Assembly: GCA_001786955.1 (NCBI GenBank)
Contig: MFUM01000004.1
Coordinates: 4,457 to 68,456, forward strand
DNA from: Candidatus Nomurabacteria bacterium RIFCSPHIGHO2_12_FULL_42_19
Lineage (GTDB): Bacteria; Patescibacteriota; Minisyncoccia; Phycocordibacterales; UBA9973
Direction of reading: 5' to 3'
DNA length: 64,000 bases
The notes under the pieces are model-generated. The model saw only the letters and a program-made list of their open reading frames with translations. It had not been told where the DNA came from and ran no database searches. This document shows positions 8,399 through 50,063 of the stretch, piece by piece. The position numbers were made by a program, and so were the translations under genes. Positions within the stretch are counted from its first letter, which is position 1, and each line of letters begins with the position of its first letter.

Positions 8399-9214
8399 AT
8401 GTCTATTCAAATCACCACAGAGCAAATAAAAGGGCTCCGCGATATGACTGGCATTTCGGTAATGCAATGTAAGCGCGCCTTGGAAGAAGCCGAAGGCGAT
8501 ATAAAAAAAGCGCTGGCTATCTTAAAAAAAACAAGCTCGGATATTGCGCTTAAAAAAGTTAATCGTGAAGTTAAAGACGGAAAAGTTTGCATTAAAACAG
8601 GAAACCTGCCTCCTGCCCGCGCAGGCGGGGCGCAGGCAGGTAAAAAAGCAGTCTTGGTGTCTTTGCGCTGTGAGACCGATTTTGTCGCCAGAAATGAAGA
8701 CTTCGCTAAGCTGCTGGAAAATCTTGCGGAAAAAGCGATAAAAGTCGGAGTAGAAGAAATGAAAAAGGAGGCCAAAGACATGATTGATGCTATAATCCAG
8801 AAAACCGGAGAAAATATCCAGCTTGGCGACACATATGAAGTAAATGGAGGTATTTTGGGAAATTACGTGCATAATAATAAGACTGGAGTTATCGTAAGCT
8901 TGACAGGGGGTGATGCGGAACTTGCAAAAGATATAGCCATGCACATAACTGCCATGAAGCCGGAATATATTTCGCAAGACGAAATAACAGAAGATGCCAG
9001 AAAAATAATGAAAGAAATTTTCGAAAAAGAAATAGCCAGTATGGACAAGCCTGCGGAAATAAAAGAGAAAATGCTTCTCGGAAAAATGGCGGCCTATTTC
9101 AAAGAAAAAACCCTGCTTGACCAGGCATTCATAAAAAACGGGGAAGAAACAGTGGGCCAGCTCCTGGAAAAAGCCAAGGCAAAAATAAAAGAAGTAAAAG
9201 CTTGCTTAATATAA
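8399..9214 (+). CDS. tsf: elongation factor Ts
   Basis: LRDMTGISVMQCKRALEEAEGDIKKA (UBA-like N-terminus), CETDFVARNEDF, HITAMKPEY. Confidence 0.9.
   Translation: MSIQITTEQIKGLRDMTGISVMQCKRALEEAEGDIKKALAILKKTSSDIALKKVNREVKDGKVCIKTGNLPPARAGGAQAGKKAVLVSLRCETDFVARNEDFAKLLENLAEKAIKVGVEEMKKEAKDMIDAIIQKTGENIQLGDTYEVNGGILGNYVHNNKTGVIVSLTGGDAELAKDIAMHITAMKPEYISQDEITEDARKIMKEIFEKEIASMDKPAEIKEKMLLGKMAAYFKEKTLLDQAFIKNGEETVGQLLEKAKAKIKEVKACLI
8605..8640. repeat. family B GC-rich palindromic insert (in frame in tsf)
   Basis: CCTGCCTCCTGCCCGCGCAGGCGGGGCGCAGGCAGG encodes LPPARAGGAQAG. It shares the GCGCAGGCAGG core with 35110-35131, 39984-40020 and 49558-49585. Confidence 0.7.
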
Positions 9215-14213: not shown

Positions 14214-15950
14214 TTATTTACGATTATTTTTAATATTCTCTTTTTTCTTATTCAATTCATTTATTTCCTTCAAAATCTTTTTACCTATTTCCTCATTAGA
14301 CGTTTGTCTTAATTCCAGCATTTTCTTGCTTAACTCTTCATTAATATTTTCTTCTTCAAGATTCAGAAACATCTCCGTTATGCTATTTTCTAATTTTTCG
14401 TTGTTCGTATAAAATACTTCTGCTTCGAATATAAGATCTTGTTTGACAACTTCATACTTTTTATAAACTTCTCCTAATTTTTCAAAAATTGCCTTAAAGT
14501 CTATAGCGGACGTTGGACGTCCGAGTTCCGGACGTCCAACGTCCGCTAAGCTTTGCTGCCAAAGAGCGATGCCCAAGAGTTTTCGCTCTATGTAATCTTT
14601 TCTGTACATCTTGGTTAAGCTCTCTCCCGCTTCCTTAATTTCTTCTTTTTCATATCTGAACTCTTGCTCAATTTTTTTTAAATCATCCTGTAATGCATTT
14701 TGAGATATGCCCGAAAGGTCGCTAATCTTTTTTATAAAATGCATTTTTTCTATCGAGCTTTCGAGCGCATTTACAAACGGTAATATTGTGCCTTTTATTT
14801 CCCTACCGGCCTTACGGGTGTCATTGCTATAATTTTTTAAAACTTTACTTAAAAGAAATTCTATAACGTGTTTAGAGTTTTTAATGGCTTCGCGCCAGGC
14901 ATCCGAACCCGTCTTCCCAATCAAATCCGCCGGATCGACACCATCAGGCATATCCACCACTTTTACATCCATCCCCAAAGAAAGAGCGATTTTGCCGGCA
15001 CGAATGGTCGCACTTGCCCCCGCCTTATCAGCATCAAAAGCAAGCACTAGATTCTCCGATAGGCGCCGCACCAGTCCTAAATTGCTTACAACATTTTCTT
15101 TTGAAACAGTAGAATCCGATAAAGCTGTGCCGGATGTCGCGATTGTGTTTTTATATCCCGCTTGATGCGATAATATCAAATCCATCTGACCTTCCACTAA
15201 AACAGAGAAGTTGTTCTTGCGGATGGAATCCTTAGCCTTATCAATTCCGTAAAGCACCGCATTTTTGCTGAAAATGGGCGTCTCGGGAGAGTTTAAATAT
15301 TTCGGTTCTCCTTCCCCTGTAATTCTTCCCGAAAACGCTATAACTCTTCCGCTTGAATCATTCATGGGAAACATAATTCTATTGCGAAAACGATCATAGT
15401 ATCCTTTCTCCGTTTTTTTAATTAGCCCGGCACGCTCTATTTCTAAATCACTAAAACCTGTCAACTTCAAGTGTTCATAAAGCGTCCGCCAGTCATCCTT
15501 CGCAAATCCAATACCAAAATCTTTGATTGTTTTTTCGCTCAGTCCTCGAGATTTTAAATATTCTATTTGTTTCGTTTCTAAGTTAGAAATAAAGAACTTC
15601 TCTGCTTTCTCCATCGCCCTGTATAATTTTTCTTTTTCGCTTTCCGCTTCTTTCATTTCTTTGCTGTAAGCCTTAAGAGGCACTCCGGCCCTATCTGCAA
15701 GAAGTTTTAATGCGCCTTTAAAATCAAGCCCTTCAAATTCCTCGACAAAGGTAAAAATATCACCCGACGCCCCGCAGCCAAAACAGTAATAAGTGCCGCG
15801 GTCGGGAGAAATGAAAAACGAAGGGGTTTTTTCATTGTGGAACGGGCATTTCGCCTTCAGGTTTACGCCTGTCTTCTCGAGCTTTATATAGGAAGAGACT
15901 ACTTCTTCAATCGATAGCCTCTCCTTAATTTTTTGTACGGGGGAATTCAT
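14214..15950 (-). CDS. dnaG: DNA primase
   Basis: Zinc finger [11 protein letters not shown]...CFGCG and a TOPRIM domain ([16 protein letters not shown]). Confidence 0.95.
14506..14546. repeat. family D perfect 18-bp inverted repeat, in frame in dnaG
   Basis: GCGGACGTTGGACGTCCG-agttc-CGGACGTCCAACGTCCGC encodes [14 protein letters not shown]. Confidence 0.7.
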
Positions 15951-33041: not shown

Positions 33042-33075
33042 AAAATAATGAACGGGGTGAACAATTTGTCAATTC

Positions 33076-33133
33076 ACCTCACCCCCGACCCCTCTCCTTA
33101 TCAAGGAGAGGGGTGCCAAAGGCGGGGTGAGGT
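33076..33133 (-). repeat. family A module Y-like nested hairpin, intergenic (between rpmF and nusB)
   Basis: Outer stem ACCTCACCCC/GGGGTGAGGT. Inner stem CCCCTCTCC-ttatcaa-GGAGAGGGG. Confidence 0.65.
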
Positions 33134-33357
33134 TATTTCTCCGCTTTTTTTGCTTTTGCTTTCTTTTGTCTCTTTTCCGTCTTTTTGACTAAATCCAAAA
33201 TCTTTTTCCCGCGGTAAAAACCGCAAGATGAGCACACTGTATGGCGTCTTTTTAGGGCTTTACAATTTTCACACTTGGAAAAACTCGTAGTTTCCAAGGC
33301 GTGGTGCGAGCGACGGTTTTTTGTATGCGATTTTGTATGCCTCATTCGTACTACCAT
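33133..33357 (-). CDS. rpmF: 50S ribosomal protein L32
   Basis: MRHTKSHTKNRRSHHAL and CxxC...CxxC (CENC, CSSCG). Confidence 0.9.
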   Translation of the reverse strand: MVVRMRHTKSHTKNRRSHHALETTSFSKCENCKALKRRHTVCSSCGFYRGKKILDLVKKTEKRQKKAKAKKAEK

Positions 33358-33432
33358 AATGAATACATCCTAGCATATTAAGGCCGAAAAGCAATTTTCA
33401 TATTGAAAATAATATGTTATTATAAACGAATT

Positions 33433-35208
33433 ATGGAAAAGACTGAAAAACTAGGCAATTTAAGGCATACTCTGGCTCACCTGCTCGCATCGGCCATCGG
33501 AGAGATTTATAAATTTGATAAAATCAAACTTACCCTCGGTCCGGCCATAGATAATGGCTTTTATTATGATATTGATTTTTGCGGCGAAAAAATGACCGAT
33601 GCGGATTTGAAAAAAATTGAAGATAAAATGCGGAAAAATTTGCCTAAATGGACAGAATGGGAACATAAAGAAATAAGCAAGGACGAAGCGTTAGAATTTT
33701 TCAAAAACGAATACAAGGCGGAATTAATAAATGAAATCGCCCTACGCGGAGAGAAAATTACTACTTATACTTGCGGAGGATTTACTGATTTATGCCGTGG
33801 TGGACACTTGGCGCATCCGTCTAAAGAAATAGATCCGGATTCTTTCAAGCTGGACCGCGTGGCCGGCGCTTACTGGCGAGGAGATGAGAAGAACAAAATG
33901 CTCACCCGAATTTACGGATTGGCTTTTGAGACCAAAGAAGAACTGGATGCATATTTAACACAAAGAGAGGAAGCAGAAAAAAGAGACCATCGAAAGCTCG
34001 GACAAGAGCTTGATATTTTTATTTTTGATGACGATGTCGGCCCGGGACTTCCGCTTTGGTTGCCAAATGGCGCCGTGATTATTGAAGAACTGGAAAAATT
34101 AGCAAAAGAAACGGAAGAAAAAGCCGGATATGTTCGTGTGCGCACTCCCCATATTGCCAAAGAATCAATGTATAAAAAAAGCGGGCATTTGCCTTATTAT
34201 GCAGACAGCATGTATTCGCCGATGGACTGTGAAGGAGAAAATTACTATCTCAAAGCGATGAATTGCCCGCACCATCATAAAATTTTTGCCGCGCGGCCAA
34301 AAAGCTATCGTGATTTGCCCCTGCGGCTTGCCGAATATGGCACAGTCTATCGTTATGAAAAATCCGGAGAACTTTTCGGGCTTATGCGCGTACGCTCCCT
34401 CTCAATGAATGACGCGCATATTTATTGTTCGGAAAAACAATTCGCGAATGAATTTCGCGCAGTTAATGAAATGTATCTTAAATATTTTAAAATTTTCGGA
34501 GTTGAAAAGTATATAATGCGATTCTCTACCCATGATCCGAAAGAACTTGGAAAAAAATATGTGGACGAACCGGAGCTCTGGCTGAAAACGGAAAAAATGG
34601 TCCGTGATGTTCTGATTGAATCAAAAATTCCATATGTTGAGGTGCCGAATGAAGCGGCTTTTTATGGGCCAAAAATAGATGTGCAAGTCTGGAGTGCTAT
34701 TGGGAAAGAGTTTACTCTGGCCACCAACCAGGTTGATTTTGCAGTGCCTAAGCGTTTTGATTTAACATTCACAAATAAAGAAGGCAAGGCAGAAACTCCG
34801 CTTTGTATCCATCGTGCGCCGCTCGGCACCCATGAAAGATTTATCGGCTTCTTGATTGAGCATTATGCCGGCATCTTCCCTCTTTGGCTCTCGCCAGTGC
34901 AGGTAAAAGTAATTCCTGTCCGCACAAATCATAATGAATATGCGAAGCAGATTTTTGAATTATTAAAAGAAAATAACATCCGTGCGGAATTGGATGATAG
35001 CGATGAAAACCTCGGCACAAAAGTCCGCGATGCAAAAAATAAAAAAATGCCTTACTGGATAGTCATCGGCGACAAAGAAATAGAAGCAAAAAAAGTAACT
35101 CTTGAATCCCGCCTGCCTGCGCAGGCAGGCGACGCTGGACAATTAGGACAAATTTCAAAAGAAGAACTCGTCGCAAAACTTGTGGCCGAGGTCAAAATTA
35201 AAATATAA
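33433..35208 (+). CDS. thrS: threonyl-tRNA synthetase lacking the N-terminal TGS domain
   Basis: Starts at the editing-domain HTLAHLL motif. Class II core and a C-terminal anticodon-binding domain. TATAAA lies 6 nt before the ATG at 33433. Confidence 0.93.
   Translation: MEKTEKLGNLRHTLAHLLASAIGEIYKFDKIKLTLGPAIDNGFYYDIDFCGEKMTDADLKKIEDKMRKNLPKWTEWEHKEISKDEALEFFKNEYKAELINEIALRGEKITTYTCGGFTDLCRGGHLAHPSKEIDPDSFKLDRVAGAYWRGDEKNKMLTRIYGLAFETKEELDAYLTQREEAEKRDHRKLGQELDIFIFDDDVGPGLPLWLPNGAVIIEELEKLAKETEEKAGYVRVRTPHIAKESMYKKSGHLPYYADSMYSPMDCEGENYYLKAMNCPHHHKIFAARPKSYRDLPLRLAEYGTVYRYEKSGELFGLMRVRSLSMNDAHIYCSEKQFANEFRAVNEMYLKYFKIFGVEKYIMRFSTHDPKELGKKYVDEPELWLKTEKMVRDVLIESKIPYVEVPNEAAFYGPKIDVQVWSAIGKEFTLATNQVDFAVPKRFDLTFTNKEGKAETPLCIHRAPLGTHERFIGFLIEHYAGIFPLWLSPVQVKVIPVRTNHNEYAKQIFELLKENNIRAELDDSDENLGTKVRDAKNKKMPYWIVIGDKEIEAKKVTLESRLPAQAGDAGQLGQISKEELVAKLVAEVKIKI
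35110..35131. repeat. family B perfect 22-bp palindrome, in frame in thrS
   Basis: CGCCTGCCTGCGCAGGCAGGCG encodes RLPAQAGD. Confidence 0.7.
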
Positions 35209-38412: not shown

Positions 38413-40269
38413 TTACCGCACTTGCCAACCATTATTCTCCTTGATTTTATTGGTTATTTGAGTCATAACTGCATTTATTTCCGCATCTGTAAGAGTCCTA
38501 TCAAAAGACTGGAAAACTACCCTAAAAGCATAAGAGATTTTATCGTCCTTTTTAAACTCATCAAAGAGTTCCGGGCCACGAATTGCAAGACTTCCGGCAT
38601 TATTTTTTATAATTTTTTCTACATCTTTACTTTTAACTCCCTCCGGCACCCAGACGGCAATATCGCGTGCGATAAAAGGAAACAAGGACCACATCTTAAA
38701 AGCTCCGCCTGTGTGCTTTTGCGAACGGTGACGTTGCGAAGCAGGATATTCCTGAGCAAAAGCATCAGGCGAGGCTGATTTACAAAATTCTTCAAGACTC
38801 ATTTCTTTTACTTCTTTTTTATTTCCATAAGCCACATTCATTTCTTCCCCGCTCTTTTTAAACACCGTTCCAATTTCAAAAATTTTTATTTCGTCCATCC
38901 CCAACAAAGGCACGTTGAGTTGGTTTAATTTCAAACTTTCCTTCAGTCCGTCAGTCAGATTCGTCCGCAAAAATTTTTTATCCGAAGCGCTCTGCATCAC
39001 TTCCACTTCCCCACTATTACAAAAAGTATAAGTCATTACTTCACTATATCCTTCGCCGAGCAATTTATTTCTCGCCCAGGAAATCTTCGCATAAGTTTCA
39101 TTTACTTTTGTTTTAAAATTAATTTTTGGTATTTTTCCTTTTACTTTGTCATAGCCAATAATCCTTCCGATTTCTTCTGCCATATCTTCCTCAATTACTA
39201 AATCAAGCCGCATCGGTGGCACGGTGATTACGTATTCTTCTCCCCCTGCTAAGGGGGAGTGCCCATCGGGCGAGGGGGTCTTTGTATATTCAAAGTTATA
39301 TCTTTTCAAAATATCTTCCACTTGAGACACAGAAATGTCCAAACCAAGAATTTTTGAAATTTTTTCCACCGAGAAAGAAAGCTTTCTGATCTCCTGTTTT
39401 TGGGGATAGACATCGACAATGTTTTCAAAAATAGCTTCCGGACACATTTCTAAAATAAGCGCCGATAATTCCAGCATAGCGTGCGGGCCAAGTTCCGGAG
39501 ATAAATCGTTTTCAAAGCGCTTGCGTGCGTCCGTAAATATATTCAAAGCCTGCGCGGTTTTTCTTACGGAAGTTGGATTAAAATTAGCAACTTCCAGAAT
39601 TATATCTTTTGTATTATTATCTACTTCCGCAATTTTCCCGCCCTTGATGCCAGCAATGGCTAAGACATTCTTATCGTCCGAAATGACCATATTTGAAGAT
39701 TTGAACTTTATTTCTTTATTGTCCAGGGTGGTCATCTCCTCGCCGTCTTTACCGTTTCGGACAATTATGTCGCCCTGTATTTTATCCAAATCAAAAGCAT
39801 GTGCGGGCTGACCGCAATCAAACATCACAATATTCGCCGCATCTACCACATTATTTATGCTTCTCTGCCCTATTGACTCCAGATGCTTTATGACCCATTC
39901 CGGACTGGTGCCAATTTTAATATTCTTTACAATTCTCCCCATATATCTTCTACATTTATCTGATTGGACATCAATTTTTAATTCTGCCTGCCCCGCCGGA
40001 GCCTTGGGCGCAGGCGGGGGAATTTTATACTTCGGAGCAGGATCAACATACTTTATATTTAAAAGTGAAGCGAGTTCACGCGCCACGCCCTGGTGGCTAA
40101 GTAAATCATGCGCGCGGTTTGGCAAGATTTTCAAATCAAAAATATTATCATCCCCTTTTTTCTCTAAACTCTCAACTTCACAAAGATGGTAATTAAAAAC
40201 ATCCACAAATTTTTCTGCATCAGGTGCTTCCGGTATATACCATTTGAGCCAATTGTAAGAAATCAACAT
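38413..40269 (-). CDS. pheT: phenylalanyl-tRNA synthetase beta subunit (short form)
   Basis: B3/4, B5 and FDX-ACB-like C-terminal regions. Directly downstream of pheS. Confidence 0.9.
   Translation of the reverse strand: MLISYNWLKWYIPEAPDAEKFVDVFNYHLCEVESLEKKGDDNIFDLKILPNRAHDLLSHQGVARELASLLNIKYVDPAPKYKIPPPAPKAPAGQAELKIDVQSDKCRRYMGRIVKNIKIGTSPEWVIKHLESIGQRSINNVVDAANIVMFDCGQPAHAFDLDKIQGDIIVRNGKDGEEMTTLDNKEIKFKSSNMVISDDKNVLAIAGIKGGKIAEVDNNTKDIILEVANFNPTSVRKTAQALNIFTDARKRFENDLSPELGPHAMLELSALILEMCPEAIFENIVDVYPQKQEIRKLSFSVEKISKILGLDISVSQVEDILKRYNFEYTKTPSPDGHSPLAGGEEYVITVPPMRLDLVIEEDMAEEIGRIIGYDKVKGKIPKINFKTKVNETYAKISWARNKLLGEGYSEVMTYTFCNSGEVEVMQSASDKKFLRTNLTDGLKESLKLNQLNVPLLGMDEIKIFEIGTVFKKSGEEMNVAYGNKKEVKEMSLEEFCKSASPDAFAQEYPASQRHRSQKHTGGAFKMWSLFPFIARDIAVWVPEGVKSKDVEKIIKNNAGSLAIRGPELFDEFKKDDKISYAFRVVFQSFDRTLTDAEINAVMTQITNKIKENNGWQVR
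38708..38769. repeat. family E hairpin element, in frame in pheT
   Basis: TGCTTTTGC / GCAAAAGCA arms around the core TGCGAACGGTGACGTTGCGAAGCAGGATATTCCTGAGC. Compare trmD 23908-23974. Confidence 0.65.
39237..39280 (-). repeat. family A module X copy, in frame in pheT
   Basis: The coding strand GACCCCCTCGCCCGATGGGCACTCCCCCTTAGCAGGGGGAGAAG encodes TPSPDGHSPLAGGEE. Confidence 0.65.
39984..40020. repeat. family B-like GC-rich insert, in frame in pheT
   Basis: CTGCCTGCCCCGCCggagccttgggcgcaGGCGGGGG encodes PPPAPKAPAGQAE. Confidence 0.55.
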
Positions 40270-40280
40270 AAATTAAGTTA

Positions 40281-41072
40281 TTAAAACTGATTGAGGCGTA
40301 AATCTCCCTGATAAAAAAGTCTAACATCCGGAATACCCCATTTAATCATAGCAATACGGTCCAATCCTCCGCCGAAAGCAAAACCTTGGTATTTTTTAGG
40401 GTCCAAGCCGCAATTTTTGAGTACATTTGGGTGTAAAACACCTGAACCCATCATCTCAAGCCACTTCCCTTTGAACTTGGCGAAAACTTCCAGAGATGGT
40501 TCGGTAAAAGGGAAAAAACTGGGGCGAAATTCTACCTCCACATCATCACTCAACATTTTTTTGTAAAAATGGGTTAATACGCCCTTCAAATCAGCAAGGG
40601 AAACATTTTCTCCCACCATTGCTCCGTCTATCTGATAAAATTGCATTTCGTGCGTTGCATCCGTAGCTTCGTTGCGGAAAACTTTTCCGATGGAAATAAA
40701 AGCGGCTGGCAATCTGCCGTCTTTGCCCGCTTGCTCAATCGCGCGGGCGGTTACGGTCGTCGTATGTGTTCGCAACACAGATTTTGAATTACCACCCCCT
40801 GCCCCCTCCTTATCAAGGCGGGGAGGATTCTTTTCTCCTCCTGCCTGAGGAGGAGTGCCCGAAGGACGAGGTGGTTCTTTTATCCAAAATGTATCCTGCA
40901 TATCCAGCGCCGGATGGTCTTTCGAAAAATTCAAGGCGTAAAAGTTATACCAGTCGCTCTCCAGCTCCGGCCCGGTCGCGATTTCAAAACCAAGCTCCGA
41001 AAAAGCCCGATAAGCCTCCTCGGCTAACAGAGAAAGCGGATGTATTGTGCCCTTTTTTATGTCTTCGTTCAT
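40281..41072 (-). CDS. pheS: phenylalanyl-tRNA synthetase alpha subunit (catalytic core only)
   Basis: Class II motifs (LRTHTT, FRNEATDATH, GFAFGGGLDRIAM). The N-terminal coiled coil is absent. Confidence 0.9.
   Translation of the reverse strand: MNEDIKKGTIHPLSLLAEEAYRAFSELGFEIATGPELESDWYNFYALNFSKDHPALDMQDTFWIKEPPRPSGTPPQAGGEKNPPRLDKEGAGGGNSKSVLRTHTTTVTARAIEQAGKDGRLPAAFISIGKVFRNEATDATHEMQFYQIDGAMVGENVSLADLKGVLTHFYKKMLSDDVEVEFRPSFFPFTEPSLEVFAKFKGKWLEMMGSGVLHPNVLKNCGLDPKKYQGFAFGGGLDRIAMIKWGIPDVRLFYQGDLRLNQF
40782..40875 (-). repeat. family A element (modules X then Y), in frame in pheS
   Basis: The coding strand ACCACCTCGTCCTTCGGGCACTCCTCCTCAGGCAGGAGGAGAAAAGAATCCTCCCCGCCTTGATAAGGAGGGGGCAGGGGGTGGTAATTCAAAA encodes PPRPSGTPPQAGGEKNPPRLDKEGAGGGNSK. 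Confidence 0.8.
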
Positions 41073-44818: not shown

Positions 44819-47014
44819 TTATAACATACTTAAAAATTCTTTCTCGCTTAATATTTTTACACCCAGCTTTTCGGCAACTTTAAGCTTGGAGCCCGGGTCC
44901 GCTCCGGCTACGATATAGGAAGTATTTTTTGAGACGGAACCCGCGACTTTCCCTCCGAGAGCCAGGATTCTTTCTTTAGCAATTTCTCGGGACATTTGGG
45001 AAAGCGTCCCGGTCAAAACGAAATGTAATTCGGTAAATTTGTCGGCTTTCTTTTTTTCCGCTCTTTCCACGATTACGCCATTTCTTTGCAATTTTTTTAT
45101 GAAATTCAAATTATTTTTATTATTAAAAAAATCATAAACGCTTTTTGATACAGCCGGGCCGATGTTTTCTATACTATCTATCTCAGCAAGGACTCCCCTT
45201 GCTGAAGTTATTAATTTTTCCAGAGTGCCAAAGTGTAGCGCTAAATCTCTTGCTGTTTCCTCCCCCACATGCAGGATTCCGAGCGCCCACAGAAAGCGTG
45301 AAAAAGGGATTTTCTTTTTATTTTTTATTTCATTGATTATGTTTTCCGCCGATTTTTCCCCAAAGCGTTCCAGGAGCGCTATATCTTCTTTTTTAAGGGT
45401 GAAAATGTCGGCTGCGTCGGTAATGAGCCCTTCGTCCTTGAATCTTCTCAGTATTTTCGGGCCTAATTCATAAATTTCAAAGACAGAAACAAAATGCTCT
45501 AAATACCTTTCGTTTTTTGCCGGGCATTTAGGATTGCTGCAATAATGAGCGACAGAGATATTCTCCAGCTCGCAAGATTTCTGAGTCGCGTAAGTCCCAC
45601 CCGGTACCCCGGGAAGGGTCAAGCGCGAAGAAATCTCGTGAGCCGAAGAATCCCCCATCTTTTTCTTCCTAACTTTTCCTCCGCAGGCCGGGCATTTGTC
45701 CGGCATTTTGAATTTTTTTTCTTTGCCTGTCCGCATCCGAATCAGCACCTCCACTACTTTCGGTATCACATCGCCGGCTTTTTCTATCACGACCGTATCC
45801 CCGATACGCAAATCAAGGCGCTCTATCTGGTCCATATTATGGAGAGTAGCCTTGGACACCCGGGAACCCGCCACCAGCGTCGGCTCAAAAAGAGCGAGCG
45901 GTGTCAATACACCGGTACGCCCGACATTTACCTTTATATCCTTTACTATTGTTGTCGCTCTTTCCGCCGGATATTTGAATGCCACCATAAAGCGCGGCGC
46001 CTTGCCGACCACCCCTAGTGTCTCCTGTAATTTCAAATCGTCCACCGAGACAACGACGCCGTCCGTGCCGTAGAGAAAATCGGGCCTGATTTTTTCAAAT
46101 TTCTTTATGAAAGTAAACACTTCATTCATATTAGCGCACAGAGCCTCCAATTTCTCAACTTTAAATCCAATCCTGCGGAGCATTTGATGTTTTTCGGAGT
46201 GGGTTTGCATAGCCGAATCATGAATTTTCTGAGTCGCGTAAGTCCCACCCCGTACTCGGGGAAGGGTCAAGCGCGAAGAAAATTCATGATTCGGCGTAGC
46301 CTCGGCTATATCGTAAGCAAAAAAATCCAATTCCCTTTTGGCGGCTAATTTTGGATCCAGCTGCCGCAAACTTCCTGCCGCGGCATTTCGGGTATTGGCA
46401 AAAAGGGGTTTTCCTTTTTTCTCATTTTCTTTATTCAATTTAACGAGCATTTCTTTGCTCAAAAGCGCTTCTCCGCGGATTTCCAGGTGCGGAAGGTATG
46501 GTTTTTGGAGAAGAAGTGGAATTGAATGTATGGTTTTGAGATTTTGGGTTATGTCTTCCCCAATTAATCCGTCTCCTCTCGTTGCGCCGCGCATAAACTT
46601 GCCATTTTCATAAACAAGCGAAACTGCCAACCCGTCAAACTTGACTTCGCAAAAATAATTAAATTTCGCGCGCGCAGGTAAAAGCTTTTTGATTCTTGTT
46701 TCCCACTCATATAATTCTGTCTCACTAAAAGCATCATTAAGAGAAAGCATGCGGGTTTTGTGCTGAACTTTTACAAATTTATTAAGCGGTTTGCCGGCTA
46801 CTCTGTTTTCCGGAGCATTTAAATCGTTAAATTCGGGGTATTTTTTCAAAAGCTCTTTAAGCTCGTGAGTGAGAGAATCGTAAACATCGTCGGTTACACC
46901 GGGGGCGTTTTGGGTATGATATAAATCACGCAAACGCGCGATTTCTTTTCGTAATTTTTTTACCCGCTTGGATTCGGCGAGGCTGGTTCTTTTTTTATCT
47001 TCCACCTCTTTCAT
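44819..47014 (-). CDS. ligA: NAD-dependent DNA ligase
   Basis: Adenylation motif CEVKFDGLA, OB fold, Zn finger CPACG...CSNPKCPAK, HhH and BRCT domains. About 60 aa longer than usual because of two inserts. Confidence 0.95.
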   Translation of the reverse strand: MKEVEDKKRTSLAESKRVKKLRKEIARLRDLYHTQNAPGVTDDVYDSLTHELKELLKKYPEFNDLNAPENRVAGKPLNKFVKVQHKTRMLSLNDAFSETELYEWETRIKKLLPARAKFNYFCEVKFDGLAVSLVYENGKFMRGATRGDGLIGEDITQNLKTIHSIPLLLQKPYLPHLEIRGEALLSKEMLVKLNKENEKKGKPLFANTRNAAAGSLRQLDPKLAAKRELDFFAYDIAEATPNHEFSSRLTLPRVRGGTYATQKIHDSAMQTHSEKHQMLRRIGFKVEKLEALCANMNEVFTFIKKFEKIRPDFLYGTDGVVVSVDDLKLQETLGVVGKAPRFMVAFKYPAERATTIVKDIKVNVGRTGVLTPLALFEPTLVAGSRVSKATLHNMDQIERLDLRIGDTVVIEKAGDVIPKVVEVLIRMRTGKEKKFKMPDKCPACGGKVRKKKMGDSSAHEISSRLTLPGVPGGTYATQKSCELENISVAHYCSNPKCPAKNERYLEHFVSVFEIYELGPKILRRFKDEGLITDAADIFTLKKEDIALLERFGEKSAENIINEIKNKKKIPFSRFLWALGILHVGEETARDLALHFGTLEKLITSARGVLAEIDSIENIGPAVSKSVYDFFNNKNNLNFIKKLQRNGVIVERAEKKKADKFTELHFVLTGTLSQMSREIAKERILALGGKVAGSVSKNTSYIVAGADPGSKLKVAEKLGVKILSEKEFLSML
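45568..45642 (-). repeat. family C hairpin element copy 1, in frame in the ligA Zn finger (75 nt)
   Basis: Outer arms GCTCGCAAGATTTC/GAAATCTCGTGAGC. Core TTCTGAGTCGCGTAAGTCCCACCCGGTACCCCGGGAAGGGTCAAGCGCGAAGAAA. Confidence 0.8.
46212..46295 (-). repeat. family C hairpin element copy 2, in frame in the ligA adenylation region (84 nt)
   Basis: Perfect 17-bp arms GCCGAATCATGAATTTT/AAAATTCATGATTCGGC. The core differs from copy 1 at 3 positions. Confidence 0.8.
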
Positions 47015-49238: not shown

Positions 49239-50063
49239 CTAAAAAAGACGCAATTCAAAAAGAAACGCCAAGAGCGCGCCTAAAACCAGATATGGAGCAA
49301 AGGGAATTTCGCTTTTTATTCCGTATTTTTTAGAAAAAACAACAAGAGAAAGACCGACAATGGCCCCAAGCCAGAAAGCGACCACAAGGCCGGAGAATGC
49401 GCGCGCGAGCCCAAGCAGCCATCCCAAGCCGACTGCCAGTTTGGCATCCCCCAGCCCCATCCAAGTTCCGGAAGACACGAGCCAAAATAAATAAAAAGGT
49501 AAAGCAATCAAGAAGCCGGACAAAAATTCCAAAATTGAAGGCATGTGCGGATAAAAACCTGCCTGCGCCCAGCCTGCGCTGGCAGAAGACAGGCCAGAAT
49601 TGTTAAAAAAGAATAAGCCGATAAAACCAAGAGCGCCTAAGGCAAAAGCGAGCGAGTCGGGGATTATTTTATGCCGGAGGTCGTAGACGGCAATAACCAC
49701 CAGAAGCGCGAATATCGCGGCATAATAAGCATAAGCGATAATAAATGCGGGAGTAAAAAAACTAAACTGTCCGCCCAGGGCGGAAAACTTTAAAAAGAGC
49801 GCCGCAAAAATCAGGCCGGTCGCCAGCTCGACCAAAGGATAGGAAATTGAGATTCTTGTTTTGCAGGTTCGGCATCTACCTCCCAAAACAAAAAAACTTG
49901 CGAGCGGGACAAGCTCATACCAGCAAAGAGTATTCTGACAGGACATACAGGCGCTTCTCCCGCCGAAGGATCTCTCGGTGTTCAGCCGGGCAATGACAAC
50001 ATTTAAAAAACTTCCGATAATCAGGCCAAAAAAAAAGAAAATAATTGTAACTACAATGATCAT
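49239..50063 (-). CDS. pilD: prepilin peptidase (A24 family)
   Basis: N-terminal Cys motif CMSC...CRTC and a catalytic Asp context (GLGDAKL). Confidence 0.9.
   Translation of the reverse strand: MIIVVTIIFFFFGLIIGSFLNVVIARLNTERSFGGRSACMSCQNTLCWYELVPLASFFVLGGRCRTCKTRISISYPLVELATGLIFAALFLKFSALGGQFSFFTPAFIIAYAYYAAIFALLVVIAVYDLRHKIIPDSLAFALGALGFIGLFFFNNSGLSSASAGWAQAGFYPHMPSILEFLSGFLIALPFYLFWLVSSGTWMGLGDAKLAVGLGWLLGLARAFSGLVVAFWLGAIVGLSLVVFSKKYGIKSEIPFAPYLVLGALLAFLFELRLF
49558..49585. repeat. family B GC-rich insert, in frame in pilD
   Basis: CCTGCCTGCGCCCAGCCTGCGCTGGCAG. pilD peptide SASAGWAQAG. Confidence 0.55.

What the first reader, a model, noticed from the sequence alone, without database searches (positions are those of the whole stretch)
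14506..14546. Perfect 18-bp inverted repeat (41-nt hairpin) in frame in dnaG
GCGGACGTTGGACGTCCG-agttc-CGGACGTCCAACGTCCGC is a perfect GC-rich hairpin in the C-terminal helicase-interaction region of primase. It encodes [14 protein letters not shown]; the palindrome produces the GRP..GRP peptide echo. I found no second copy in this window, so it may be a further element family.
Basis: seen in the sequence. Interest (0 to 1): 0.5.

Follow-up and report, generated by a model that had tools for sequence, protein, structure and literature searches.

The report
REPIN-like palindrome inserted in primase gene
The perfect hairpin inside the primase gene is one copy of a short palindromic repeat found across many ultra-small (CPR/Patescibacteria) bacterial genomes. 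The repeat flanks a REP-type tyrosine transposase gene in related genomes and usually sits in frame inside essential genes, where it adds a small surface loop to the protein.

Summary
Window 14504-14548 is a perfect 20+20-nt inverted repeat with a 5-nt loop (45 nt, 15 codons), in frame in dnaG of a Candidatus Nomurabacteria genome.

It is an insertion. 115 of the 120 closest DnaG proteins lack it, and in an AlphaFold model it lies in a coil between two C-terminal helices.

It belongs to a dispersed family with core GACGT-TGG-ACGTC ... GACGT-CCA-ACGTC. An exact-pattern scan found 75 stretches in 29 CPR assemblies, as single hairpins and mostly as inverted doublets.

About two thirds of copies lie inside long ORFs. 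All 20 ORFs tested are real housekeeping genes, and the copies are strongly biased to the frame DVGR..RPTS.

In four related genomes the same hairpins flank a single RAYT-like HUH/Y1 transposase gene (best fold match PDB 4ER8). More distant RAYTs are flanked by co-varying hairpins.

Strains with otherwise identical dnaG differ only by reverse-complementing the 5-nt loop (flip/flop). Outer stems differ between copies but stay Watson-Crick complementary.

Best reading: a REPIN/REP-like element, RPE-like in being coding. RAYT mobilisation is inferred, not shown, and no RAYT or second copy lies in this window. I rate it a new member of a known kind, of moderate interest.

The parts
14504..14548 (.). 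Whole palindromic element: 45 nt, a REPIN-like doublet of two inverted hairpin units
   Evidence: 20-nt perfect arms with a 5-nt loop; hairpin of -30 kcal/mol (DNA) and -44 kcal/mol (RNA), z about -11.
14504..14523 (+). Left arm, holding the 'TGG' unit. Core GACGTTGGACGTC lies at 14509-14521. The arm is itself a small hairpin: CGGACGT-TGG-ACGTCCG.
   Evidence: the core is invariant in 34 of 34 aligned family copies.
14524..14528 (.). Loop AGTTC (GAACT in gene sense). It is reverse-complemented in other assemblies of the same species (flip/flop).
   Evidence: the only differences in the 1737-nt dnaG between the window and L086-L088 are these 5 bases, exactly reverse-complemented (L089 has one further substitution); both forms were assembled repeatedly.
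14529..14548 (+). Right arm, holding the 'CCA' unit. Core GACGTCCAACGTC lies at 14531-14543.
14214..15950 (-). Host gene dnaG (primase, 578 aa). The element encodes residues 469-482, in a coil between helices 432-470 and 485-492.
   Evidence: 100% identical to Ca. Nomurabacteria DnaG. (AF2 model, pLDDT dips to about 50 at 471-480). (fold matches DnaG structures).
14464..14552 (.). Roughly 90-nt mosaic patch that differs from a 99.7%-identical relative (L001). That relative lacks 30 nt of the palindrome.
   Evidence: the only indel in 17.4 kb, plus 18 clustered mismatches confined to this patch.

Best explanation
The palindrome is one copy of a CPR/Patescibacteria-wide family of very short, GC-rich, nested-palindromic repeats. 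In architecture it is a REPIN: two inverted REP-like hairpin units (stem-TGG-stem and stem-CCA-stem) separated by 9 nt. The most likely origin is insertion into a variable 4-residue linker between two helices of the DnaG C-terminal region. It was probably mobilised in trans, as single-stranded hairpin DNA, by a single-copy RAYT-type HUH/Y1 tyrosine transposase. It persists because in this reading frame it encodes a hydrophilic Gly/Arg/Pro/Thr/Ser loop (DVGRP..GRPTS) that the protein tolerates. The arms are probably kept perfectly complementary, and the loop flips between strains, through intrastrand template switching or arm-to-arm conversion in the hairpin state.

Shown here: the palindrome; its status as an insertion; the family; the in-frame and frame bias; the adjacency and co-variation of RAYT genes and hairpins in related genomes; the flip/flop; the compensated stem differences.

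Inferred: that the RAYT moves it; that the intermediate is single-stranded; that template switching maintains it; and that this particular genome has, or once had, the RAYT.

The confidence of 0.72 is for the full REPIN/RAYT reading. That the palindrome is a member of a dispersed CPR repeat family is close to certain.
For: **Insertion.**
- The 10-residue extra segment is present only in P0001-P0003 and, in related form, P0048. The other 115 of 120 DnaG homologues lack it, including one that is 97% identical.

**Family.**
- The pattern CGTTGGACGTC-N3-20-GACGTCCAACG matches 83 stretches. Of these, 75 lie in 29 CPR assemblies, with up to 12-14 stretches per assembly. About 1-6 matches are expected by chance in 596 Gb, and the 8 non-CPR hits are in high-GC genomes.
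- Single hairpins exist (24). Doublets are strongly oriented: TGG..CCA 99 versus CCA..TGG 9.

**Coding copies.**
- 52 of 81 doublets lie in ORFs of at least 200 aa. All 20 ORFs tested have strong Pfam hits: TopA, PurH, GatB, GuaA, RecJ, RNase J, DnaG and others.
- 31 of the 37 doublets in those long ORFs with an in-phase spacer use the DVGR..RPTS frame.

**Transposase link.**
- A 227-aa protein is flanked within about 120 nt on both sides by these hairpins in L083, L037 and L016. In L090 it is flanked by six single hairpins with the same core.
- RAYTs at 63-67% identity are flanked instead by CGGGTG-TTGGA-CACCCG (L091) or CAGGTAT-CCG-ATACCTG (L093), so the hairpin co-varies with the protein.
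- The protein matches Pfam Y1_Tnp (E = 1e-4) and NCBIfam REP_Tyr_transpos (E = 1.7e-6), both below the curated cut-offs. JGI names its homologues RayT.
- HUH (H84-F-H86) and Tyr144 are invariant in 37 homologues.
- The AF2 model's best PDB match is 4ER8_A, the E. coli RAYT bound to a REP hairpin (E = 2.7e-5). IS608, ISDra2 and IS200 TnpA follow.

**Palindrome dynamics.**
- Loop flip between otherwise identical dnaG alleles.
- In 34 aligned copies, stem pairs outside the invariant core vary but stay Watson-Crick. Pair 8-44 reads GC 24, AU 8, CG 2, unpaired 0. None of 500 shuffles reached the observed covariation score, and G-U pairs are no more frequent than chance.

**Tolerated loop.**
- The insertion lies in a coil between helices, with low pLDDT only there.
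Against: - No RAYT gene, no conserved RAYT neighbourhood and no second copy lie in this 64-kb window. Whether this genome has the enzyme or other copies is unknown.
- The genome scan did not return this species at all, so the scan is not exhaustive.
- No target-site duplication or conserved target motif could be defined. The only near-identical 'empty' allele (L001) is a mosaic patch, not a clean empty site.
- The element occupies the same dnaG site in five lineages whose flanks are only 57-75% identical. That fits ancient descent with losses, short-patch recombination, or a hot spot; recent transposition has not been demonstrated.
- The sequence matches of the transposase to RAYT models are below the curated cut-offs.
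- REPs are by definition extragenic and carry an unpaired GTAG or CGTC tag (PMC3733652). Neither holds for this family.
Confidence: 0.72

Rival explanations
1. The copies spread and persist mainly by homologous or ectopic recombination rather than by transposase-mediated insertion. This would mean short-patch gene conversion between alleles after DNA uptake, or conversion from other copies at sites with microhomology. On this view the RAYT only processes the hairpins, or is merely linked to them.
For: - L001 differs from the window over 17.4 kb essentially only by a ~90-nt mosaic patch that includes the element. So short-patch replacement at this site does occur, unless the contig is an assembly chimera.
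- The element sits at the same codon position in five DnaG lineages, and likewise at shared sites in GatB, TopA and PurH of different species.
- The ancestral linker (x-T-P-x, ACN CCN G..) resembles the end of the core (ACGTCCG).
Against: - Flanks of the five dnaG copies are no more similar than the rest of the gene, 57-75%. Recent transfer of large patches is therefore not supported.
- Recombination alone does not explain arrival at dozens of unrelated genes, the strong TGG..CCA orientation bias, or the co-variation of hairpin sequence with RAYT lineage.
Confidence: 0.15
2. The palindrome is a selected functional feature of dnaG itself. It could be a DNA or RNA hairpin that regulates primase expression or replication, or a functional DVGRP..GRPTS loop in the helicase-binding region.
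For: - A very stable hairpin sits inside the mRNA.
- It recurs at the same dnaG site in five lineages.
- A sub-family of the repeat carries a DnaA-box-like 9-mer.
Against: - It is absent from 115 of the 120 closest DnaG proteins.
- The same repeat lies in at least 15 unrelated gene families and in intergenic DNA.
- The loop sequence can be reverse-complemented (PELG to PSSG) without other change.
- There is no excess of G-U pairs, so no sign of RNA-level selection, and no Rfam match.
Confidence: 0.05
3. It is a locally generated palindrome, made by inverted duplication or quasi-palindrome correction through replication template switching, and is unrelated to any mobile family.
For: - Perfect arms and a loop flip are classic products of template switching at hairpins (established knowledge).
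- The outer stems are specific to each copy.
Against: The identical 13-nt core, spacing and orientation recur in 75 stretches of 29 genomes and next to RAYT genes. Independent local origin cannot produce that. Template switching probably maintains the palindrome but did not create it.
Confidence: 0.03
4. It is a DNA uptake sequence, a restriction or other protein-binding site (it holds two GACGTC/AatII-type sites), or an assembly artefact.
For: - The palindromic hexamer GACGTC occurs twice.
- CPR bacteria depend on imported nucleotides (general knowledge).
- Palindromes can confuse de Bruijn assemblers.
Against: - Copy numbers are tens per genome at most, far below the roughly one per kb typical of uptake sequences.
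- The exact allele was assembled in at least 24 contigs from different studies and assemblers. The flipped allele was assembled in at least 8: 7 contigs carrying P0002 and 1 carrying P0003.
Confidence: 0.02

Closest known systems
REP / REPIN elements with their RAYT (REP-associated tyrosine transposase), e.g. E. coli and Pseudomonas (PMC3116915, PMC3337134, PMC5581495, PMC3479197)
   Same: - Short GC-rich hairpin repeats, occurring as singletons and mainly as inverted doublets that fold into one long hairpin.
- A single-copy HUH/Y1 transposase gene in a conserved chromosomal neighbourhood, flanked by the repeats.
- Repeat sequence co-varies with RAYT lineage.
- Copies persist at orthologous positions across species.
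   Different: - Roughly two thirds of copies are inside genes and translated, not extragenic.
- There is no unpaired GTAG/CGTC tag.
- The doublet is only about 36-55 nt, with near-perfect arms.
- The host is CPR/Patescibacteria, for which I found no report.
- The RAYT is very divergent, below the curated family cut-offs.
Rickettsia palindromic elements (RPE) and intragenic REPs (Ogata et al. 2000, from my own knowledge; PMC3733652)
   Same: - Palindromic repeats inserted in frame into housekeeping genes, adding a peptide segment.
- DNA replication and repair genes are often hit.
- Different copies can lie at about the same site of a gene in related species.
   Different: - RPE-1 is 100-150 bp and has no known transposase.
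- Sequences are unrelated and the host phylum differs.
- Here a cognate RAYT-like gene is linked to the repeat.
IS200/IS605 family and their palindrome-associated derivatives (TnpA Y1; PDB 2A6M, 2XM3)
   Same: - The associated protein has the same fold and the HUH plus Tyr motifs.
- These enzymes recognise sub-terminal hairpins in single-stranded DNA and leave no target duplication, which fits the lack of a TSD here.
   Different: - The element carries no transposase gene and has no distinct left and right ends.
- The RAYT gene appears to be single-copy and chromosomally fixed.
Small hairpin-loop inversions in chloroplast DNA, and quasi-palindrome template-switch mutations (own knowledge)
   Same: The loop is reverse-complemented between near-identical genomes, and the arms stay perfectly complementary.
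   Different: Those are properties of any hairpin, not an element family. They explain maintenance and flipping, not origin or spread.

Membership tests
REP/REPIN-RAYT system | Short palindromic repeat present in many copies per genome | tested here: inconclusive
   Met in related CPR genomes: 12-14 stretches per assembly in JARLIG01 and CAZKWN01, and 9 copies in CAWHSF01, all by a strict exact pattern. In the window's own genome only 1 copy is seen in 64 kb, and the rest of the genome could not be read.
REP/REPIN-RAYT system | Repeats flank a cognate RAYT gene and co-vary with it | tested here: met
   L083, L037, L016 and L090 carry the same core on both sides of the RAYT. L091 and L093 carry variant hairpins beside diverged RAYTs. 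This was met in relatives only. No RAYT lies in this window.
REP/REPIN-RAYT system | The associated protein is an HUH/Y1 transposase of RAYT type | tested here: met
   Pfam PF01797 E = 1e-4 and NCBIfam NF047646 E = 1.7e-6, both below cut-off. HUH and Tyr are invariant. The best fold match is 4ER8_A, E = 2.7e-5, probability 1.00.
REP/REPIN-RAYT system | Inverted doublet (REPIN) as the predominant unit | tested here: met
   99 TGG..CCA doublets, 9 in the opposite arrangement, 24 singletons.
REP/REPIN-RAYT system | Extragenic location | tested here: not met
   52 of 81 doublets lie in ORFs of at least 200 aa, and all 20 tested are bona fide genes. The window copy is inside dnaG.
GTAG-/CGTC-tagged REP super-families (PMC3733652) | Unpaired GTAG or CGTC tag at one end, 8-9 bp stem beginning with A/T, 4-5 nt loop, CCA tail | tested here: not met
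   CGTC occurs, but as a paired part of the stem. The unit loop is TGG (3 nt) and there is no unpaired tag or tail (definition).
REP/REPIN-RAYT system | The RAYT binds and cleaves the repeat and mobilises it | not testable with these tools
   This needs biochemistry or mobilisation assays.
Rickettsia palindromic elements (RPE) | In-frame palindromic insertion in protein-coding genes relative to orthologues | tested here: met
   This is a functional resemblance only: sequence, size and host differ, so it is not a member.
MITE | Terminal inverted repeats matching a parent IS, plus a target-site duplication | tested here: not met
   No direct duplication flanks the copies. The conserved part is the middle of each arm, and the termini are specific to each copy.

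The most novel reading that the evidence does not exclude
CPR bacteria may carry an ancient, vertically persisting REPIN-RAYT system whose elements live mostly inside essential genes as translated loops. On this reading the elements are actively kept as perfect DNA palindromes by a hairpin-resolution or template-switch process that also flips them. That would make them a systematic source of lineage-specific insertions in CPR proteins. Through the sub-family carrying a DnaA-box-like tail, they might also have a role at the replication fork.
Probability: 0.15. Interest if true: 0.7.

Novelty: new member of a known kind. Interest (0 to 1): 0.5.

Why it matters
CPR/Patescibacteria proteins and rRNAs are known for unexplained lineage-specific insertions. 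This result gives a concrete, searchable source for one class of them: a 36-55-nt palindromic repeat that adds DVGRP..GRPTS-type loops to primase, topoisomerase I, GatB, PurH, RecJ, RNase J and others.

It also links in-frame, RPE-like palindromic elements to a RAYT-type transposase, in a phylum where I found no description of such a system.

There are practical consequences. These repeats can break assemblies, create false strain variants through loop flips, and mislead alignments and phylogenies of marker genes.

Tried and rejected
- **Clean empty site.** L001 is 99.7% identical over 17.4 kb, but it differs by a ~90-nt mosaic patch with 18 clustered mismatches. The exact insertion boundaries and any target duplication therefore could not be read.
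- **Recent lateral transfer of the dnaG patch between lineages.** Rejected: identity around the element equals the gene average.
- **Metagenome scan with a dnaG-site-specific pattern.** It gave only 2 loci and did not return the window's own species, so that collection is a subset.
- **Viral contigs.** No match.
- **Rfam.** Only three tRNAs in the window and nothing at the site.
- **Sequence search of the RAYT against PDB.** Nothing meaningful came from either a single sequence or a profile. Only the fold comparison worked.
- **RAYT or its conserved neighbours in the window.** None found.
- **Literature.** No paper in the held library contains the core sequence in a relevant context, and none combines RAYT/REPIN with CPR names.
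- **Pfam on the DnaG C-terminus.** Only a sub-threshold DnaB_bind hit upstream of the site. 'Helicase-interaction region' therefore stays positional.

Full report
**1. The observation.**

Window 14506-14546 reads as reported. The perfect inverted repeat extends two bases further on each side. The arms are 14504-14523 and 14529-14548 (20 nt, 100% complementary) and the loop is 14524-14528 (AGTTC), giving 45 nt or 15 codons.

It is the longest perfect inverted repeat in the window. In 40 simulated 64-kb sequences with the same dinucleotide transitions, the longest perfect arm was 9-14 nt. The single strand folds at -30 kcal/mol as DNA and -44 kcal/mol as RNA. The z-scores are about -11, and none of 200 shuffles did as well.

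The element lies in frame in a 578-aa ORF on the minus strand (14214-15950). That ORF is 100% identical to DnaG of Candidatus Nomurabacteria assemblies, and its model matches DnaG structures. It encodes residues 469-482, [14 protein letters not shown].

No second copy of GGACGTCC, or of the 13-nt core with up to 2 mismatches, lies in the window.

**2. It is an insertion.**

I aligned the 120 best DnaG homologues. The extra 10 residues occur only in P0001-P0003 (the same species) and, in related form (TDVGRLQGRRPTSV), in P0048, which is 75% identical. The other 115 have a 4-residue linker, typically x-T-P-x, or a deletion.

In an AlphaFold model built with 65 homologues, the segment is coil between helices 432-470 and 485-492. 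The only local dip of confidence is there. It therefore replaces a short inter-helix linker in the all-helical C-terminal third.

Pfam's DnaB_bind gives only a weak hit further upstream.

**3. It belongs to a dispersed family.**

P0048's locus (L002) also carries a perfect palindrome of 45 nt: TTACAGACGTTGGACGTCTGC-AGG-GCAGACGTCCAACGTCTGTAA. It shares the core GACGTTGGACGTC with the window copy. Every stem difference between the two copies is compensated in the other arm.

I scanned one genome per species (596 Gb) with CGTTGGACGTC-N3-20-GACGTCCAACG. It returned 83 stretches:
- 75 lie in 29 Patescibacteria/CPR assemblies (Nomurabacteria/Paceibacterota, Saccharibacteria bins), with up to 12-14 stretches per assembly.
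- 8 lie in unrelated high-GC genomes, about the number expected by chance.
- The window's own species was not returned, so the scan is not exhaustive.

**Anatomy**:
- Each arm is itself a small hairpin, stem-TGG-stem. In the window copy this is CGGACGT-TGG-ACGTCCG.
- The element is therefore two inverted units, with TGG and CCA loops, most often 9 nt apart.
- Single units exist (24).
- Doublets are strongly oriented: TGG..CCA 99 versus CCA..TGG 9.

**4. Most copies are translated.**

Of 81 CPR doublets, 52 lie in open frames of at least 200 codons. All 20 such ORFs I tested are bona fide housekeeping genes. They are GuaA x2, GatB x2, PurD, TopA x3, PurH x3, RecJ, RNase J, an ATP synthase subunit, GatA, a Mur ligase, an ABC transporter, an aminotransferase, an LTD protein and another DnaG.

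Among long-ORF copies whose spacer is a multiple of three, 31 of 37 are read in the frame DVGR..RPTS. In short, probably spurious frames the phases are even (5/5/3). None of the six frames of the core contains a stop. This is the pattern expected if only insertions that give a tolerable hydrophilic loop survive.

**5. The link to a transposase.**

A 227-aa protein lies within about 120 nt of these hairpins, with hairpins on both sides of the gene, in three genomes: L083, L037 and L016. In L090 a 69%-identical homologue is flanked by six single units with the same core.

Homologues at 63-67% identity are flanked instead by CGGGTG-TTGGA-CACCCG (L091) or CAGGTAT-CCG-ATACCTG (L093). The hairpin therefore co-varies with the protein.

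The gene sits in a conserved neighbourhood, like a resident chromosomal gene.

Evidence that the protein is a RAYT-type enzyme:
- It matches Pfam Y1_Tnp (E = 1e-4) and NCBIfam REP_Tyr_transpos (E = 1.7e-6), both below curated cut-offs.
- It has over 3000 homologues, many named RayT by JGI.
- HUH (H84-F-H86) and Tyr144 are invariant.
- Its model (pLDDT 77) best matches 4ER8_A, the E. coli RAYT bound to a REP hairpin (E = 2.7e-5). IS608, ISDra2 and IS200 TnpA follow.

These are the defining associations of REP/REPIN-RAYT systems (PMC3116915, PMC3337134, PMC5581495).

**6. Dynamics of the palindrome.**

The window's dnaG and three other assemblies of the same species (L086-L088) differ only in the five loop bases. 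These are exactly reverse-complemented (GAACT versus AGTTC, giving PELG versus PSSG). L089 has the same flip plus one further substitution. Both forms were assembled repeatedly and by different pipelines, including in sibling samples of one study series.

In 34 aligned doublets the 13-nt cores are invariant. The stem pairs outside the invariant core, on both its outer and inner sides, vary but remain Watson-Crick. Pair 8-44, for example, reads GC 24, AU 8, CG 2, with none unpaired. None of 500 shuffles reached the observed covariation or percentage paired, and G-U pairs are no commoner than chance.

The constraint therefore looks DNA-level. It fits arm-to-arm copying, as in template switching at hairpins and the small loop inversions known from chloroplast DNA (my own knowledge). 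It does not look like selection on an RNA fold.

**7. History at the dnaG site.**

Related copies lie at the same codon position in five DnaG lineages whose flanks are only 57-75% identical: the window, L002, L058, L095 and L096. L095 and L096 were found with a pattern that fixed the junction. The net length gains are +10, +11, +13, +13 and +9 residues.

The closest relatives of the window species and of P0048 lack the element. Identity around the element is not raised.

L001 is 99.7% identical to the window over 17.4 kb and differs essentially by one ~90-nt mosaic patch that removes the palindrome. Short-patch replacement, or chimeric assembly, therefore occurs here.

Shared sites are also seen in GatB, TopA and PurH of different species. 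I cannot decide between repeated insertion at a hot spot, ancient insertion with losses, and short-patch recombination. No target duplication or clean empty site was found.

**8. Verdict.**

The best explanation is a REPIN-like doublet of a RAYT-associated hairpin family specific to CPR bacteria, fixed in frame as a surface loop of primase. It resembles Rickettsia RPEs and the intragenic REPs catalogued in PMC3733652.

It is not a typical REP. It is mostly intragenic, and it lacks the unpaired GTAG/CGTC tag.

Mobilisation by the RAYT is inferred. Neither the enzyme nor further copies could be sought in the rest of this genome.

I found no description of this family or of RAYT/REPIN systems in CPR in the held literature. 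That is not proof of novelty. I rate it a new member of a known kind, of moderate interest.

Noticed in passing
window 8612-8647, 35108-35131, 39985-40022, 49558-49590: A second kind of GC-rich palindrome (CCTGCC[T/C]GCGCAGGC[A/G]GG-like) lies inside four different long ORFs: 8399-9214 (+), 33403-35208 (+), 38413-40269 (-) and 49239-50063 (-). These may be further in-frame palindromic element families in this genome.
   Followed up: no
window 45577-45636 and 46231-46290 (ORF 44819-47014, minus strand): A ~60-nt GC-rich repeat (..GAGTCGCGTAAGTCCCACCC.GTAC.C.GGGAAGGGTCAAGCGCGAAG..) occurs twice inside one 731-aa ORF. The second copy is framed by a perfect 19-nt inverted repeat (46212-46230 / 46277-46295).
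   Followed up: no
window 39236-39284, 40835-40874, 33071-33138: More short GC-rich hairpin-like stretches are present: GGGGGAGTGCCC..GGGCGAGGGGG and CACCTCACCCC..GGGGTGAGG. The first two lie inside ORFs.
   Followed up: no
L083 3871-3879 and 3031-3039; L037 around 1018-1026; 13 of 83 doublets in the fetched loci: One sub-family (CCTCCAGACGT..) carries a DnaA-box-like 9-mer (TGTGGATAA / TTATCCACA, 1 mismatch or fewer) on exactly one side, always in the same relative orientation. It occurs in 13 doublets where about 1 is expected. The same tail follows the repeats on both sides of the RAYT genes. It could be part of the unit the RAYT recognises, or a real DnaA box.
   Followed up: partly
L016 about 1264-1276: The RAYT gene of this genome itself carries an in-frame single hairpin unit of the family.
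   Followed up: no
L084 7742, 7814, 7886: Three single hairpin units lie exactly 72 nt apart in AT-rich intergenic DNA, forming a small array.
   Followed up: no
window 14464-14552 versus L001 7050-7110: A relative that is 99.7% identical over 17.4 kb differs by one ~90-nt mosaic patch (18 mismatches plus a 30-nt gap) at exactly the palindrome. This is either short-patch recombination with a diverged allele or a chimeric metagenome contig.
   Followed up: partly
L009, L020, L064 (GatB); L011, L065 (TopA); L031, L044 (PurH): Copies of the repeat occupy the same codon position of the same gene in different species. Spacer lengths differ (7, 9 or 10 nt), yet the reading frame is preserved.
   Followed up: partly
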